The notes beneath the pieces are model-generated. The model was given only the letters and a program-made list of their open reading frames with translations, did no database searches and was not told where the DNA came from. 64,000 bases of DNA. Origin: Gaiellales bacterium (GTDB lineage Bacteria > Actinomycetota > Thermoleophilia > Gaiellales > JAICJC01). Of the stretch, positions 8,815 to 45,655 are shown piece by piece. The stretch covers positions 47,246-111,245 of the forward strand of contig DASUHM010000050.1 in assembly GCA_036273515.1 (NCBI GenBank), read 5' to 3'. How positions within the stretch are numbered: the stretch's first letter is position 1; every line of letters begins with the position of its first letter. A program made the translations under genes and the position numbers.

Positions 8815-9585
8815 TCACGCCCGCGTCCACAGCGCGCCCGAGCTGTACCGCCGCAGGCCGATCCGGAACGTCGTCACCGCCATGAGGGCGAAGAACGCCG
8901 CCGCGGCGATCGCCGCCAGCGCGACCGGCCAGCGGAAGCTCGACACGAGGCTCGTCGGGAGGCCGGTCACGAACGCCGCGGGCACCGCCGTGAAGAGGAA
9001 CAGCTTCGTCAGCCCCCCGAACACGTCGATCGGGTAGGAGGCGAAGATCAGGATCGCCTGGAAGCCCAGGTCGGCCTGCTCGCCGCGCCCGCCGGCGAAC
9101 AGCGTCACCGACCCCAGCGCGACCAGGAAGCCCACCAGCACCACCGTCCCGCAGATCGCGCCGAACACGAAGATCAGCGCCCGCTCGGGCGTCGGGTCGC
9201 CGGCCACCAGGAAGAGCACGGGCCCGAAGGCGAGGTCGCCGAGGAGGGCAGTGTCCACCCGCCGCGTCAGCAGGTAGGTGAGCGGATTCGTGGGCAGTGC
9301 GAGAGCGGCGTCGAGCGACCCGCCGGCGATCAGCTCGCCCAGCCGGCGTGAGTTCGAGAGCAGGCCGAGGCCGGTGCCGCTCACCGTCGTCAGGATCGCG
9401 AACAGCAGCAGCACCTTGTGGGTGTCCCAGCCCTTCAGCGACCCGACCTTGCGGAAGAAGAGCACCCAGAAGATCACCCAGGCCACGTCGTTCGCGGCCA
9501 TGATCCCGATCTGGAACCAGAACCCGCGCCGGTTCGACCAGGCCTCCAGAAACGCGGTGCGCAGGGTGGCGAGGGCGACGGTCAT
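8815..9585 (-). CDS. ABC-2 type transporter permease (DUF990-like)
   Basis: ATG 9585 (MTVALATLRTAFLEAWSNRRGFWFQ...). 256 aa, 6 TM-like segments. ATGA overlap with the upstream permease. Confidence 0.8.
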   Translation of the reverse strand: MTVALATLRTAFLEAWSNRRGFWFQIGIMAANDVAWVIFWVLFFRKVGSLKGWDTHKVLLLFAILTTVSGTGLGLLSNSRRLGELIAGGSLDAALALPTNPLTYLLTRRVDTALLGDLAFGPVLFLVAGDPTPERALIFVFGAICGTVVLVGFLVALGSVTLFAGGRGEQADLGFQAILIFASYPIDVFGGLTKLFLFTAVPAAFVTGLPTSLVSSFRWPVALAAIAAAAFFALMAVTTFRIGLRRYSSGALWTRA

Positions 9586-10358
9586 CCGCCCACCACCTCC
9601 AGCCGCCGCTCGCCGGCCCGGAAGACGCCGCCGGCGCAGGCGAGCAGGGCCACGAGCCACGCCGCCTGCGCGAGCAGGAGCCACGGCTCCACATGCCCCG
9701 ACGCCAGCCGCGCGGGGGCGTACGCCATCGCCGCGAACGGCAGCGCCTTGGCCACGTCGGCGAGCCCGGTCGGCAGGAACTCGAGCGGCAGCAGCATCCC
9801 GCCGAGCAGGAACACGAGCTTCTGGTACAGGAACCAGGTCGAGCGGGCGTCGCGCAGCCAGAACGCCGCGCCGGCGAACGCGTGCTGCGCCGCCAGGTTG
9901 CAGCCGACGGCGAGCAGGCTCGCCGGGACGAAGAGCGCGATGCCGGCGGCGCTCGGCGGCGGCCCCACATAGAGCCAGACGATCACGCCGCCGACCGCCA
10001 GCGACGCCACGAGCCGCACGAGCGCCTCGCCCAGCTCGGCCGCCAGCCGCAGCCCGACGACGGAGGCCGGCCGCAGCATCTCGGTCACGATGGCGCCGGA
10101 GGATATGTCCCAGCCGATGGTCTCGATCATCCGCGGCTTGGTGGCGATCACCGAGCCCTCGGCCGCGGCCACGTACCAGAGCAGCGAGTGGGCGGTGTAG
10201 CCCGAGATCGAGCCGCCGTTGGCCTTCGTCGCCGCCGACCACAGGGCCGAGAAGATGACCAGGATGAGCGCGTAGAACGTCACCCGCACGGCCAGCTCGC
10301 CGCGCTGGCGCATCGTCCGCCGGGCCGAGAGGTGCAGCTGGGCGAGGAGGGCGCTCAC
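9582..10358 (-). CDS. ABC-2 type transporter permease (second subunit)
   Basis: GTG 10358 (VSALLAQLHLSARRTMRQRGELAVRVTFY...). 258 aa, multi-TM. GTGA overlap with the ATPase stop. Confidence 0.8.
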   Translation of the reverse strand: MSALLAQLHLSARRTMRQRGELAVRVTFYALILVIFSALWSAATKANGGSISGYTAHSLLWYVAAAEGSVIATKPRMIETIGWDISSGAIVTEMLRPASVVGLRLAAELGEALVRLVASLAVGGVIVWLYVGPPPSAAGIALFVPASLLAVGCNLAAQHAFAGAAFWLRDARSTWFLYQKLVFLLGGMLLPLEFLPTGLADVAKALPFAAMAYAPARLASGHVEPWLLLAQAAWLVALLACAGGVFRAGERRLEVVGG

Positions 10359-11296
10359 GTCCGCCCCTCGTAGATCTCCGAGATGACCTGCTCGAGCGGC
10401 GGATCGACCACGGAGATGTCTGCGATCGCATAGCTGTCGAGCAGCTCGTCGAGCACCTCGCGCACCGACAGGCGGCGGGTGTCCACCACCAGGCCGTAGA
10501 CCGTGTCGGACTCCGAGGTCACCTGCACGCCGTCGATCTCGAGCCCGTCCGGCGCCTCCTCGAAGCGCACCTCGAGCAGCTTCGTCTGCAGCAGCGAGCG
10601 CCGCATCCGGCCCACCTGGTCGTCGTAGATGATCGTGCCGTGGTTGATCACGACGACCCGGTCGGCCACGTGCTCGATGTCGGCCACGTCGTGCGAGGTG
10701 AGAAAGACGGTGGTGCCGTGCTCCTCGTTCAGGCGCACCACCATCTCGCGGAAGCGCTGCTTGGCGATCAGGTCGAGTCCGATCGTGGGCTCGTCGAGAA
10801 AGAGCACCTCGGGCCCGTGCAGCACCGTCGCGGCGAGCTCGCAGCGCATTCGCTGGCCGAGCGAGAGCGAGCGCACCGGCTGGTCGATCAGGTCGGTGGC
10901 GTCGAGCAGCTCCGCCAGCTCGTCGGTGCGGCGGCGGGCATCGTCGGGGTCGAGCCGGTAGATCCGCGCGAGCAGGTGCAGCGTCTGCCGGGTGGTGAGC
11001 TCGAACCAGAGCTGGGAGCGCTGGCCAAAGAGCGTGCCGATGCGGCGGGCGAGGTCGCGACGCTGGGTCCACGGCACGAGGCCGAGCACCGTCGCCTCGC
11101 CGCGAGTCGGGTGCAGGATGCCCGTGAGCATCTTGATCGACGTCGACTTGCCGGCGCCGTTCGGGCCGATGTAGGCCAGCCGCTCGCCTCGCTCCACGGT
11201 GAAGGTGATGTCGCGCACGGCCTCGACGCGGCGGCGGTCGCGGCCGCGGCCGGCGGTGAATTCCTTGGAGAGCTCGGTGGTCGAGATGGCAAGCAT
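10355..11296 (-). CDS. ABC transporter ATP-binding protein
   Basis: Walker A GPNGAGKST, signature LSLGQRMR, Walker B VLFLDEPTIGLD. Start taken at ATG 11296 (MLAIS...); the track's TTG 11311 lies in a terminator U tract. Confidence 0.9.
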   Translation of the reverse strand: MLAISTTELSKEFTAGRGRDRRRVEAVRDITFTVERGERLAYIGPNGAGKSTSIKMLTGILHPTRGEATVLGLVPWTQRRDLARRIGTLFGQRSQLWFELTTRQTLHLLARIYRLDPDDARRRTDELAELLDATDLIDQPVRSLSLGQRMRCELAATVLHGPEVLFLDEPTIGLDLIAKQRFREMVVRLNEEHGTTVFLTSHDVADIEHVADRVVVINHGTIIYDDQVGRMRRSLLQTKLLEVRFEEAPDGLEIDGVQVTSESDTVYGLVVDTRRLSVREVLDELLDSYAIADISVVDPPLEQVISEIYEGRT

Positions 11297-11307
11297 GGGT
11301 CGGTCCA

Positions 11308-11335
11308 ACAAAAAGCCCCGGTGGGTGTCCGGGGC
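11308..11335 (-). terminator. intrinsic-terminator-like hairpin (attenuator) immediately upstream of the ABC-2 operon start
   Basis: Minus strand reads GCCCCGG-ACACCCA-CCGGGGC followed by TTTTTGTT. The hairpin ends 12 nt before ATG 11296. Confidence 0.65.
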
Positions 11336-11478
11336 GGCGGCGGTGCAGAGATGATGCGAGATCGATCTAGTGCGCGCGACGCCCCGGCCCGGCGGGGTAC
11401 GCCGGGACCATGACCTTCGTCTCGTGGGAGCGACACGTCATCCCGACCACGATAGCCGCACTCCTCCCGAAAGTGCAA
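11336..11478 (-). promoter_or_regulatory. candidate promoter, leaderless 24-codon sORF and antiterminator arm (leader of the ABC-2 operon)
   Basis: TTGCAC (11478-11473), an 18-nt spacer, TATCGT (11454-11449), then 7 nt to ATG 11441. The sORF is MTCRSHETKVMVPAYPAGPGRRAH* (11441-11367). A second CCGGGGC copy (11387-11381) can pair with the terminator 5' arm. Confidence 0.4.
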
Positions 11479-11490
11479 CGGAAATCGCCG

Positions 11491-11520
11491 TGAACAAACG
11501 GGCCTGACCCGTCTATTCAG
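11491..11520. repeat. palindromic repeat, TGAAYAAA...GTCTATTCA subfamily
   Basis: TGAACAAACGGGCCTGACCCGTCTATTCAG is closely similar to 48824-48855. It overlaps the last codons and the TAG stop of rdgB. Confidence 0.7.
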
Positions 11521-45495: not shown

Positions 45496-45543
45496 GGTCG
45501 ATCCCCTACGTTCGGGCCGGCGCCCTTCGGCGCGGCCGGTTCA

Positions 45544-45655
45544 CATCGTCCGGGATCCGCGGATCCCGCCGGATTTGGCACCTTTCCCCGCCGTGGCCGG
45601 GATGGTTGCCGAGGCTTCACAGGGCCGGTCCCTCCGCCTCTCTGGATGCGACGCC
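45544..45655 (-). promoter_or_regulatory. SAM-I (S-box) riboswitch
   Basis: The minus strand reads AUCCAGAGAGGCGGAGGGACCGGCCCUGUGAAGCCUCGGCAACC...AAAGGUGCCAAAUCCGGCGG...GGACGAUG. This matches the conserved SAM-I core almost position for position. A GC hairpin and GGGGA RBS lie between it and ATG 45495. Confidence 0.9.

What the first reader, a model, noticed from the sequence alone, without database searches (positions are those of the whole stretch)
11308..11478. Terminator hairpin 12 nt before an ABC-2 exporter start, with a competing arm inside a possibly leaderless sORF
On the minus strand, GCCCCGG-ACACCCA-CCGGGGC-UUUUUGUU (11335-11308) is one of the few canonical intrinsic terminators in this window. 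It ends only 12 nt upstream of the ATPase ATG (11296), leaving no room for a promoter. The operon must therefore be transcribed through it. Upstream there is a plausible promoter: TTGCAC, an 18-nt spacer, TATCGT (11478-11449). It is followed 7 nt later by ATG 11441, which opens a 24-codon ORF, MTCRSHETKVMVPAYPAGPGRRAH*. A second exact CCGGGGC heptamer (11387-11381) lies within the 3' part of that sORF and can pair with the terminator's 5' arm GCCCCGG. This gives a mutually exclusive antiterminator. That is the logic of a translation-coupled attenuator, or of an unrecognised riboswitch. I could not match the leader to any riboswitch class I know.
Basis: partly seen in the sequence, partly recalled or inferred. 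Interest (0 to 1): 0.55.

Follow-up and report, generated by a model that had tools for sequence, protein, structure and literature searches.

The report
Leaderless leader-peptide attenuator of ABC exporter
In front of a drug-exporter-like ABC operon of a soil actinobacterium (order Gaiellales) lies a conserved 24-codon mini-gene that seems to start at the first base of its transcript. It is followed by two mutually exclusive RNA hairpins, so the position of a ribosome on the mini-gene most likely decides whether transcription stops before the operon. This is a new example of a well-known kind of switch.

Summary
GCCCCGG-N7-CCGGGGC-U5GUU (11335-11307, minus strand) ends 10 nt before the ATPase ATG (11296). 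By a strict scan it is the only canonical intrinsic terminator in this 72% GC window. The whole leader is conserved in 22 Gaiellales-type loci: -35 TTGC, -10 GCGGCTAT(C/G)GTG, a start codon 6-8 nt later (ATG; GTG once), and a 23-24-codon sORF always ending at the same TAG. The sORF has gene-like GC3 (0.91) and only 3-nt indels. This hairpin contains the sORF stop codon and uses the terminator's 5' arm. The leader stays with the ABC operon where the upstream gene is divergent. Six further subfamilies in other Actinomycetota share the design: a start codon 6-11 nt after the -10, 22-25 codons, a stop 22-31 nt before the same stem, and in five of them a C-terminal R-[A/V]-x-stop. There is no Rfam, Pfam or NCBIfam match. 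Best reading: a ribosome-dependent transcription attenuator, like the whiB7 and ilvB1 leaders, controlling an Ethyl Viologen Exporter-family (DUF990) pump. The signal is unknown. It is a new member of a known kind, of moderate interest.

The parts
11473..11478 (-). -35 hexamer TTGCAC of the leader promoter
   Evidence: TTGC is invariant or nearly so in the 14-locus alignment. It lies 18 nt upstream of the -10, and the spacer sequence is not conserved. The consensus promoter scan misses it because only 3 of 6 bases match TTGACA.
11448..11459 (-). Conserved -10 block GCGGCTATCGTG (the -10 hexamer TATCGT is at 11454-11449, of the TAnnnT type)
   Evidence: GCGGCTAT-GTG is invariant in the 14 genome-derived leaders. 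The metagenome loci deviate slightly: L067 has TAAGGT, and L068, L071 and L072 have TCCGGC. The distance from the hexamer to the start codon is 6-8 nt in all 22 leaders, while the intervening bases vary.
11367..11441 (-). Apparently leaderless sORF of 24 codons plus TAG, encoding MTCRSHETKVMVPAYPAGPGRRAH
   Evidence: The ORF is intact in 22 of 22 leaders, and one has a GTG start (L072). All indels inside it are 3 nt, whereas those after the stop are 1-2 nt. GC1/GC2/GC3 of codons 2-12 are 0.47/0.54/0.91, and none of 231 third positions is A. The ATPase gene gives 0.71/0.42/0.95 and the post-stop region 0.69/0.62/0.62. Translation itself is inferred, not shown.
11388..11406 (-). Small hairpin inside the sORF, CCCGGCG-loop-CGCCGGG (codons 12-18)
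   Evidence: The six pairs are 86.5% paired across the alignment, and three of them show changes on both sides: GC to AU in L008, and CG to UA or GC elsewhere. Its role is inferred. It may be a pause hairpin or a spacer helix next to the antiterminator.
11329..11387 (-). Antiterminator hairpin of 59 nt. The 5' strand is at 11387-11366 (codons G-P-G-R-R-A-H plus the UAG stop). The 3' strand is at 11349-11329 and includes the terminator 5' arm
   Evidence: It is the RNAalifold consensus of 21 leaders. Its energy is -26.6 kcal/mol with z = -2.57, and -25 to -33 kcal/mol in all 21 leaders. Cells are 98% paired, but the columns are mostly invariant. One pair shows a double change (GC to UA in L009 and L019) and three show G-U changes.
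11307..11335 (-). Intrinsic terminator: stem-loop at 11335-11315 (7 GC pairs, 7-nt loop) and U-run UUUUUGUU at 11314-11307
   Evidence: Its energy is -14.1 kcal/mol. The stem is invariant apart from one C-to-U change that stays paired in both structures (L047). It is the only canonical terminator found in the window.
11302..11309 (-). Conserved GUUGGACC directly after the U-run, function unexplained
   Evidence: It is identical in 20 of 21 unique leaders (L010 has GUCUGACC). The 5-18 nt between it and the ATPase ATG vary freely. No conserved pairing partner and no Shine-Dalgarno sequence were found.
10355..11296 (-). ABC ATPase gene, the first gene of the regulated operon
   Evidence: It matches Pfam ABC_tran. 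The best NCBIfam hit is the DrrA subfamily, below cutoff. JGI names the homologues 'viologen exporter family' ATP-binding protein. The start is conserved across orthologues.
8815..10361 (-). Two ABC2_membrane_6 (DUF990) permease genes (about 10361-9582 and 9591-8815; starts approximate)
   Evidence: Both match Pfam PF06182. The gene order ATPase, permease, permease is conserved in all related loci. [quoted passage not shown]
11493..11512 (-). Context only: rdgB's own hairpin next to its stop codon, ACGGG-UCAGG-CCCGU followed by UUGUU, upstream of the leader promoter
   Evidence: Related loci carry different GC-rich palindromes at this place. This shows that rdgB has its own 3' end structure, separate from the leader.

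Best explanation
This is a ribosome-dependent transcription attenuator of the ABC-2 exporter operon. I infer that transcription starts at or within a few bases of A 11441, from a TTGCAC-18 nt-TATCGT promoter. The RNA would then begin with the AUG of a 24-codon leader ORF, making it a leaderless mRNA. The 3' third of the ORF, including its UAG stop, is the 5' strand of a long antiterminator hairpin. The 3' strand of that hairpin contains the 5' arm of the intrinsic terminator. The antiterminator strands are made before the terminator's 3' arm, and the antiterminator is the more stable local hairpin. It should therefore form first on naked RNA and let RNA polymerase read into the operon. A ribosome that has translated to codon 14 or beyond, and above all one sitting at the stop codon, covers or melts the 5' strand. 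The GCCCCGG arm is then free to pair with CCGGGGC, and transcription stops 10 nt before the ATPase start. Efficient, closely coupled translation of the leader ORF therefore keeps the exporter off. Slow, stalled (P-site codon 13 or earlier) or absent translation turns it on. What is shown: the sequence elements, their conservation, the coding signature of the sORF and the two mutually exclusive structures. What is inferred: the transcription start, translation of the sORF, the polarity of the switch and the physiological signal. The most likely signal is general translation stress, such as ribosome-targeting antibiotics or starvation, as for the whiB7 leader.
For: The terminator, promoter hexamers, sORF and competing arm are all in the sequence. 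The leader is conserved in 22 loci, with neutral-looking variation exactly where the model predicts no constraint: the -35/-10 spacer, the bases between the -10 and the ATG, and the bases between GGACC and the ATPase ATG. The start codon lies 6-8 nt after the -10 in all of them, with one ATG-to-GTG change. Indels are 3 nt inside the sORF and 1-2 nt outside it. GC3 of the sORF is 0.91, like real genes of the window, and the periodicity disappears after the stop. RNAalifold's consensus is the antiterminator, with the stop codon inside it. The antiterminator has -25 to -33 kcal/mol against -14 to -17 for the terminator in 21 of 21 leaders, with z = -2.57. The full-length terminator and antiterminator states are nearly isoenergetic (mean difference +1.8, sd 4.4 kcal/mol), as expected for a kinetic switch. 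When a ribosome footprint is masked, the terminator is always predicted once the P-site is at codon 14 or later. The leader travels with the ABC operon when the upstream gene is divergent. Six further subfamilies keep the same geometry, and in five of them the predicted partner of the terminator 5' arm lies within -5 to +16 nt of the stop codon (-18 to -12 in the window's own subfamily). The same logic has been shown experimentally for the actinobacterial whiB7 and ilvB1 leaders (papers read).
Against: There are no experimental 5' or 3' ends and no ribosome occupancy data. The antiterminator helix is mostly invariant, so covariation support is thin: one pair has a double change, and 3 of 500 shuffles reach the observed covariation score. 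Part of its conservation could instead reflect the peptide. In the window's own sequence the equilibrium fold of the complete leader favours the terminator by about 4 kcal/mol. Read-through by default therefore rests on a kinetic argument. No run of regulatory codons or known stall motif is present, so the signal is unknown. In subfamilies L015-17, L076 and L092-96 the predicted antiterminator is only 3-8 bp against a -16 to -22 kcal/mol terminator, and in L075 and L087 only 3 arm bases are paired. Transcription-translation coupling has not been studied in this lineage. The ATPase has no Shine-Dalgarno sequence, and the conserved GUUGGACC is unexplained.
Confidence: 0.72

Rival explanations
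1. The architecture is the same, but the sensor is the nascent peptide. The conserved C-terminus (G-R-[A/V]-x-stop) would act as an arrest or termination-pausing peptide inside the ribosome, possibly together with a small molecule such as the exporter's substrate. The dwell time of the ribosome at the stop codon, rather than elongation speed, would then set the choice between terminator and antiterminator. This would resemble TnaC, SpeFL, MsrDL and PepNL.
For: R at -3 and A or V at -2 from the stop recur in 6 of 7 subfamilies. They do so with different codons (GCG, GCC, GTC, GTG, GTT; CGC, CGT) and with all three stop codons, while the rest of the peptide is unrelated. In subfamilies other than the window's, the CGCG bases have no antiterminator partner, so RNA pairing does not explain their conservation there. 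The stop codon always lies 22-31 nt before the terminator stem. Peptides that block release at a stop codon are an established class, in which residues near the C-terminus matter (PMC11890864).
Against: A ribosome held at the stop codon would cover the antiterminator 5' strand and favour termination. A substrate-induced stall would therefore switch the exporter off, which is an odd logic for a pump. The last residue varies (H, R, L, C, P, S), and subfamily L075 ends in PAA. In the window's subfamily the same bases are paired in the antiterminator. In several other subfamilies they are predicted to pair with the 5' end of the sORF. Nucleotide-level constraint is therefore not excluded. The peptides match no known family.
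Confidence: 0.12
2. It is a riboswitch or a protein- or sRNA-binding leader. A ligand or factor, not a ribosome, would decide between the antiterminator and the terminator, and the ORF would be incidental.
For: There are two mutually exclusive, nearly isoenergetic structures. The apical part of the antiterminator, UAGAUCGAUCUCGCAUCAUCUG, is very strongly conserved and could be a binding site. An open 23-codon frame is itself not unlikely at this GC content (probability about 0.68).
Against: No Rfam family matches, even at E up to 10. The 5' 36 nt are poorly conserved in sequence, and there is no multi-helix junction. Such a model does not explain the fixed distance from the -10 to the start codon, the ATG-to-GTG change, the 3-nt indels, or the GC3 periodicity that stops at the stop codon. 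Subfamilies with unrelated leader sequence still keep a 22-25-codon ORF in the same position.
Confidence: 0.07
3. The sORF encodes a functional micropeptide, for example a substrate or partner of the exporter. The hairpin would simply end its short transcript, and the operon would be expressed by occasional read-through.
For: The sORF shows a coding signature and a conserved C-terminal motif. Small peptides are often encoded next to ABC-2 exporters (general knowledge).
Against: The N-terminal two thirds of the peptide are not conserved even among close relatives. There is no room for a separate operon promoter between the terminator and the ATPase start (10 nt). The long antiterminator that overlaps both the ORF end and the terminator arm has no role in this reading.
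Confidence: 0.04
4. The hairpin is the terminator of the upstream rdgB gene, and the ABC operon has an unrecognised promoter elsewhere.
For: rdgB is co-directional and ends 177 nt upstream of the hairpin. The order rph, rdgB, leader, ABC operon is conserved in most loci.
Against: rdgB has its own hairpin directly after its stop codon. A conserved promoter and sORF lie between rdgB and the terminator. In L010, L090 and L091 the upstream gene is a divergently transcribed flavin oxidoreductase, yet the full leader is present. In the other subfamilies the upstream genes are unrelated. Only 10 nt separate the U-run from the ATG.
Confidence: 0.02

Closest known systems
whiB7/wblC uORF attenuator of Actinobacteria
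   Same: A short upstream ORF is followed by a Rho-independent terminator and a competing antiterminator. Efficient uORF translation gives termination, and translation stress (ribosome-targeting antibiotics, amino-acid depletion) gives read-through. This is as described in bioRxiv 10.1101/2023.06.02.543512. The phylum is the same, and the regulated function is linked to drug tolerance.
   Different: The regulated gene is an ABC-2 exporter, not a WhiB-family regulator. The whiB7 uORF is described as lying downstream of a distal transcription start, and the word 'leaderless' does not occur in that paper; here the ORF seems to start at the 5' end. There is no Ala-rich composition and no sequence similarity. 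No positive feedback loop is evident.
Mycobacterium tuberculosis ilvB1 leader (and the classical trp, ilv and leu attenuators)
   Same: There is a translated uORF, antiterminator and terminator hairpins, and a ribosome at the stop codon that masks the antiterminator so that the terminator forms (PMC13236596). Seliverstov et al. predicted classical attenuators in Actinobacteria (PMC1262725).
   Different: Those leaders carry runs of regulatory codons for the amino acid made by the operon (LVVI in ilvB1). Here no such run exists and the operon is not biosynthetic.
Mycobacterial polycysteine leaderless short ORFs (Ms5788A class)
   Same: A leaderless short ORF is the first cistron of an operon in an actinobacterium, and ribosome position on it controls the downstream genes (bioRxiv 10.1101/834739).
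   Different: [quoted passage not shown] Here there is a canonical intrinsic terminator and no Cys tract (0-2 Cys codons).
Antibiotic-responsive leader-peptide attenuators of resistance genes in Firmicutes (vmlR; bmrB-bmrCD and lmo0919 cited from memory)
   Same: A leader ORF plus terminator and antiterminator control a drug-related ABC protein. PMC9226507 on vmlR appeared in the search; only the start of its abstract was seen. The bmrCD and lmo0919 cases rest on my own knowledge.
   Different: Those leader ORFs are led by Shine-Dalgarno sequences, lie in a different phylum, and respond to defined antibiotic classes. No inducer is known here.
Termination-arrest peptides TnaC, SpeFL, MsrDL and PepNL
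   Same: These are short leader peptides whose C-terminal residues control the behaviour of the ribosome at the stop codon, and through it the downstream genes (PMC11890864). Here a C-terminal R-[A/V]-x-stop is conserved.
   Different: No arrest has been shown here and there is no sequence similarity. According to my own knowledge, TnaC and SpeFL act through Rho rather than through an intrinsic terminator.

Membership tests
Ribosome-dependent (leader-peptide) transcription attenuator | A short ORF with a plausible translation start lies in the 5' leader of the regulated operon | tested here: met
   A 23-24-codon ORF is present in 22 of 22 leaders. Its start lies 6-8 nt after the -10 (ATG, once GTG). 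It has gene-like GC3 and only 3-nt indels. Translation was not measured.
Ribosome-dependent (leader-peptide) transcription attenuator | An intrinsic terminator lies between the leader ORF and the first structural gene, with no room for another promoter | tested here: met
   There is a 7-bp GC stem and a U5GUU tail ending 10 nt before the ATG. It is conserved in all loci.
Ribosome-dependent (leader-peptide) transcription attenuator | An alternative antiterminator shares a strand with the terminator, and its other strand lies where a translating ribosome would cover it | tested here: met
   The consensus antiterminator spans 11387-11329, and its 5' strand is the last 6 codons plus the stop. Ribosome-mask modelling puts the switch point at codon 13/14. 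Covariation is weak.
Ribosome-dependent (leader-peptide) transcription attenuator | Defined regulatory codons or a stall site link the switch to a signal | tested here: inconclusive
   There is no codon run. Only Pro13 and the C-terminal G-P-G-x-R-A are conserved within the subfamily, and R-[A/V]-x-stop across subfamilies.
Ribosome-dependent (leader-peptide) transcription attenuator | Premature termination and regulated read-through are observed experimentally | not testable with these tools
   This needs Term-seq, 5'-RACE or reporter assays.
Leaderless mRNA | The transcription start coincides with the start codon (5' UTR of 0 to a few nt) | tested here: inconclusive
   The gap from the -10 to the start codon is 6-8 nt in the window's subfamily, 6-7 nt in four others, 9 nt in L092-96 and 11 nt in L075. 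No Shine-Dalgarno sequence is conserved upstream. The start site itself is not mapped.
Riboswitch | A conserved ligand-binding aptamer with a multi-helix architecture supported by covariation | tested here: not met
   No Rfam match was found at E up to 10 or at gathering thresholds in related loci. The 5' part is variable, and only one small hairpin and the antiterminator helix are conserved.
whiB7/wblC leader family | The leader lies upstream of a whiB7/wblC gene and has an Ala-rich uORF | tested here: not met
   The downstream genes are an ABC ATPase and DUF990 permeases. The peptide has 3 Ala in 24 residues. It works like this family but is not a member.
Mycobacterial polycysteine LL-sORF attenuators | A poly-Cys tract in the sORF, and control through occlusion of the downstream ribosome-binding site | tested here: not met
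   There are 0-2 Cys codons and none is invariant. Control here is through an intrinsic terminator, and the ATPase has no Shine-Dalgarno sequence to occlude.
Ethyl Viologen Exporter (EVE, DUF990) ABC family, TCDB 3.A.1.141 (the regulated operon) | One ABC ATPase plus two PF06182 (ABC2_membrane_6) permeases | tested here: met
   Pfam hits are, the JGI naming, and the equivalence of the family with DUF990 in PMC5417439. The substrate was not tested.

The most novel reading that the evidence does not exclude
The conserved C-terminus of the leader peptide (G-R-[A/V]-x-stop) is kept across seven otherwise unrelated leader subfamilies and with all three stop codons. It may be a new actinobacterial arrest peptide that controls how long the ribosome stays at the stop codon. 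It might do so in response to a small molecule in the exit tunnel, such as a cationic substrate of the exporter. That dwell time would set the choice between antiterminator and terminator. This would be a TnaC- or SpeFL-like metabolite- or drug-sensing nascent chain, on an apparently leaderless mRNA and coupled to an intrinsic terminator.
Probability: 0.12. Interest if true: 0.72.

Novelty: new member of a known kind. Interest (0 to 1): 0.42.

Why it matters
This element has not been described: it has no Rfam, Pfam or NCBIfam counterpart, and I found no paper on it. It occurs in several largely uncultured Actinomycetota lineages, always in front of one ABC exporter family (EVE/DUF990) whose natural substrate and regulation are unknown.

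Regulation by a translation-sensing attenuator would point to a role of this pump in coping with translation stress or ribosome-targeting compounds in soil. It would also add a second widespread actinobacterial example, besides whiB7, of a uORF-controlled stress or drug-response gene.

The element combines an apparently leaderless leader peptide with a canonical intrinsic terminator in a genome where such terminators are rare. This makes it a compact test case for transcription-translation coupling on leaderless mRNAs. The conserved C-terminal motif offers a concrete candidate for a new arrest or termination-pausing peptide.

Tried and rejected
- **Rfam.** The leader was searched at E up to 10, six related loci at gathering thresholds and the whole window. 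Nothing matched the leader. The weak anti-hemB hit (18.7 bits against a gathering score of 49.5) only reflects the terminator.
- **Consensus promoter scan.** It found nothing. This is uninformative, because actinobacterial promoters of the TTGCnn / TAnnnT type fail its thresholds.
- **Second copy in the window.** A fuzzy search for the four conserved blocks found only the leader itself.
- **Peptide families.** Six representative leader peptides gave no hit in Pfam or NCBIfam at E up to 1.
- **5'-terminal hairpin AUGAC:GUCAU.** It would sequester the start codon. By my reading of alignment A2 it is present in most leaders but absent in the L004, L047, L067 and L009, L019 groups, so it is not a family feature.
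- **Pairing of GUUGGACC with GGUCC in the sORF.** It appears in the MFE of the window and of L069 only and is not conserved.
- **The palindrome AGATCGATCT after the stop as a DNA operator.** It is not kept in the L004 group or in L010. Those keep only UAGA:UCUG, which fits RNA pairing better.
- **Macrolide-type '+x+' stalling at R-A-R as the inducer.** A ribosome stalled there would cover the antiterminator strand and favour termination. The last residue is often H, L, C, P or S.
- **ORF openness as evidence for coding.** It is weak. The chance probability is about 0.68, and one of the two other frames is open too.
- **A strong antiterminator of the same kind in the other subfamilies.** Only 3-8 bp helices next to the stop codon were found.
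Full report
**Observation**

On the minus strand the window reads rph, rdgB (Ham1 family, ends TAG 11515-11513), then a 216-nt intergenic region. After that come an ABC ATPase (11296-10355) and two ABC2_membrane_6 (DUF990) permeases.

The hairpin GCCCCGG-ACACCCA-CCGGGGC lies at 11335-11315 and is followed by UUUUUGUU at 11314-11307. The ATPase ATG follows 10 nt later.

The scan tool recognises the hairpin, but its loose definition is not enriched over shuffles (2 found, 1.9 expected). With a strict definition it is the only canonical intrinsic terminator on either strand of the 64-kb, 72% GC window. TTGCAC (11478-11473), an 18-nt spacer, TATCGT (11454-11449), ATG 11441, the 24-codon ORF ending at TAG 11369-11367, and the second CCGGGGC (11387-11381) are all present.

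**Relatives**

The ATPase retrieved 66 genome loci. The closest thirteen have 85-94% protein identity and are labelled Gaiellales, Thermoleophilia or uncultured Actinomycetes. They carry the same leader.

I also scanned the metagenome collection with a pattern anchored only on ACCGCCG, the terminator 3' arm, the U-run and GACC, which is blind to the sORF and the promoter. It gave eight more loci, and all eight carry the sORF. In the seven that extend past the leader, the same ATPase gene follows; L067 ends 5 nt after GGACC.

In the alignment the conserved blocks are TTGC, GCGGCTAT(C/G)GTG, the start codon, the 3' part of the sORF, the post-stop segment TAGATCGATCTCGCATCATCTGCACCGCCG, the terminator stem, the U-run and GTTGGACC. 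Three stretches vary freely: the -35/-10 spacer, the bases between the -10 and the ATG, and the bases between GGACC and the ATPase ATG. The leader is therefore under selection as a unit.

**The leader belongs to the ABC operon**

rph, rdgB, leader, ABC operon is the usual order. In L010, L090 and L091, however, the upstream gene is a divergently transcribed flavin oxidoreductase, and the complete leader is still there. rdgB also has its own hairpin right after its stop codon. The idea that the hairpin merely terminates rdgB can be dismissed.

**The sORF**

- All 22 leaders have an intact 23-24-codon frame that ends at the same TAG.
- The start codon lies 6-8 nt after the -10 hexamer, although the intervening bases differ. 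No Shine-Dalgarno sequence is conserved. This is the geometry of a leaderless mRNA, in which transcription starts on the start codon.
- L072 has GTG instead of ATG.
- The two indel events inside the frame are both 3 nt. Indels after the stop are 1-2 nt.
- Openness alone means little at this GC content (chance about 0.68; one of the two other frames is also open).
- Codon-position composition is telling. In codons 2-12, where no RNA structure is conserved and the amino acids vary, GC1/GC2/GC3 are 0.47/0.54/0.91, and not one A occurs among 231 third positions. The ATPase gene gives 0.71/0.42/0.95. The 33 nt after the stop give 0.69/0.62/0.62.

I take this as good indirect evidence that the frame is translated. 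Translation was not measured.

**RNA structures**

RNAalifold on 21 unique leaders returns the antiterminator as the consensus, not the terminator. CCGGGGCG pairs with CGCCCCGG. The helix is extended by CG(C)GCG:CGCCG and UAGA:UCUG and capped by a small GAU:AUC stem. Its 5' strand is the last six codons plus the stop codon, and its 3' strand ends with the terminator's 5' arm.

- The hairpin has -26.6 kcal/mol (z = -2.57), against -14.1 for the terminator.
- The same holds in all 21 leaders: -25 to -33 against -14 to -17.
- Pairing is kept in 98% of cells, but most columns are invariant. One pair shows a double change (GC to UA in L009 and L019), and three show G-U changes. One of these is a C-to-U in the shared arm of L047 that stays paired in both structures. 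Covariation support for the antiterminator is therefore thin.
- The small hairpin inside the sORF (11406-11388) has three covarying pairs.
- For the complete leader the two states are nearly isoenergetic (mean difference +1.8, sd 4.4 kcal/mol). In the window itself the terminator state wins by about 4 kcal/mol, because the upper part of the antiterminator can persist in a shifted register. This is the behaviour of a kinetically controlled switch.

**Mechanism**

The antiterminator strands are transcribed before the terminator's 3' arm, so naked RNA should fold into the antiterminator first and allow read-through. I modelled a ribosome as an unpaired footprint from -12 to +15 around the P-site. 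The terminator is predicted with probability close to 1 whenever the P-site is at codon 14 or later. With the P-site at codon 13 or earlier, or with no ribosome, the outcome is bistable.

I therefore propose that efficient, coupled translation of the leader ORF to its end causes termination. Slow, stalled or absent translation lets the antiterminator form and the operon be transcribed.

This is the logic shown for the actinobacterial whiB7 leader and the M. tuberculosis ilvB1 leader. Leaderless sORFs as sensors are known from the mycobacterial polycysteine sORFs, which act on translation rather than on termination.

No run of regulatory codons is present. My best guess for the signal is general translation stress. 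This is an inference and nothing more.

**Wider family**

Other orthologous operons (70-80% ATPase identity) carry leaders with unrelated sequence but the same plan. The peptides are:

| Subfamily | Leader peptide |
|---|---|
| L015-17 | ..TTNPI..FMLVxxRAR* |
| L075 | MDGRAICTYPKVSSSEAGLPAA* |
| L076 | MFGRCVIAVMLLTGFDPELGGRAR* |
| L080, L083, L084 | ..GFGPAGSGR[VA]R* |
| L087 | ..GMSGDGGRVC* |
| L092-96 | ..LPAVEVRVP* |

All have the following features:

- a TAnnnT -10, with the start codon 6-9 nt later (11 nt in L075);
- 22-25 codons;
- a stop codon 22-31 nt before a GCCCCGGG/CCCGGGGC stem, followed by a U-rich tract (interrupted in L075);
- 16-31 nt from the stem to the ATPase start.

The sORFs of the lower-GC subfamily L092-96 have the same GC1/2/3 as their ATPase gene. 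Before the 3' arm exists, the predicted partner of the terminator 5' arm lies within -5 to +16 nt of the stop codon in five of these six subfamilies (-18 to -12 in the window's own). That is within reach of a terminating ribosome. Outside the window's subfamily, however, that helix has only 3-8 bp; in L087 the few paired arm bases reach only +10 to +12, and in L075 just three arm bases pair, at +5 to +7. The simple competition is less convincing there.

In still other lineages the ATPase gene itself appears leaderless, with TAGGGT or TAGGCT 5 nt before the ATG. This suggests that the leader ORF and terminator were inserted between an old leaderless promoter and the gene.

**An open point: the C-terminus**

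R at -3 and A or V at -2 from the stop recur in six of seven subfamilies, with different codons and all three stop codons. In the window's subfamily these bases are also paired in the antiterminator. In the others they are not, although some are predicted to pair with the 5' end of the sORF.

This may mean that the nascent chain tunes how long the ribosome stays at the stop codon, as termination-arrest peptides do. I rate this reading at about 0.12. A ribosome held at the stop would favour termination, which is an unexpected logic for substrate induction of a pump.

**The regulated genes**

[quoted passage not shown] JGI labels the homologues 'viologen exporter family'. The best NCBIfam hit of the ATPase is the DrrA subfamily, below its cutoff. 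The natural substrate is unknown.

**Comparison and novelty**

Nothing in Rfam, Pfam or NCBIfam corresponds to the leader or its peptide. The literature searches found no description of it.

It meets the structural criteria of a leader-peptide transcription attenuator. It is not a member of the whiB7, ilvB1, polycysteine or amino-acid leader families. I class it as a new member of a known kind.

It is a clean and unusually well-conserved case in a poorly studied lineage. Three things remain unexplained: the signal, the conserved C-terminal motif, and the invariant GUUGGACC after the U-run together with the missing Shine-Dalgarno sequence of the ATPase. Interest is moderate (0.42).

Noticed in passing
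window 45540-45652 (minus strand): A SAM-I riboswitch aptamer (RF00162, 84.6 bits against a gathering score of 44.4) is the only Rfam family that reaches its threshold in the window. My strict terminator scan found no canonical terminator near it.
   Followed up: no
window 1-64000, both strands: Under strict criteria (perfect GC-rich stem of at least 6 bp plus a T-run), the leader hairpin is the only canonical intrinsic terminator in 64 kb of 72% GC sequence. Gene ends here evidently use other signals.
   Followed up: partly
window 11302-11309 (minus strand): GUUGGACC directly after the U-run is identical in 20 of 21 leaders, while the next 5-18 nt vary. In this subfamily the ATPase start has no Shine-Dalgarno sequence, unlike most of the other subfamilies, where GGAGG-, GGGAG- or GGGGA-like motifs are visible before the start. 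No pairing partner was found.
   Followed up: partly
L002, L005, L007, L009, L019, L045, L047, L068, L069, L071, L072: spacer between rdgB and the leader promoter: This spacer is filled with GC-rich palindromic repeats such as GGTGCCTGGCACC...GGTGCCAGGCACC or GGGGACTGTCCCC. The window has only a short ACGGG/CCCGT hairpin at 11512-11498. They could be REP-like elements or variable rdgB terminators.
   Followed up: no
L011, L018, L021, L077, L079 (TAGGGTgagg[ga]ATG) and L013, L014, L049 (TAGGCTcaacgATG), directly upstream of the ATPase start: In these Actinomycetota lineages the orthologous ATPase gene has a -10-like hexamer 5 nt before its ATG and no leader. The operon itself therefore appears to be leaderless. 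This hints at how the sORF-terminator module was inserted.
   Followed up: partly
L046:2800-3000 (Bacillota MAG, 45% ATPase identity): This distant homologue has a TTGCAT-17 nt-TATAGT promoter and a leader of about 170 nt with its own terminator hairpin and U-run before the ATPase. No Rfam family matches it at the gathering threshold. It may be an independent regulatory leader of the same transporter family.
   Followed up: no
L010:5706-5781 (minus strand): A c-di-GMP-I-GGC riboswitch (RF03167, 64.4 bits) lies downstream of the ABC operon in this related locus.
   Followed up: no
L015:1557-2780; L094:1-709: In two other subfamilies the gene(s) upstream of the leader look like signalling proteins. 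L015 has a 407-aa multi-pass membrane protein. In L094 the precomputed Pfam hits are PspC with a weak HATPase_c on one gene and Response_reg with GerE on the next. This may point to a second layer of control of the exporter.
   Followed up: no
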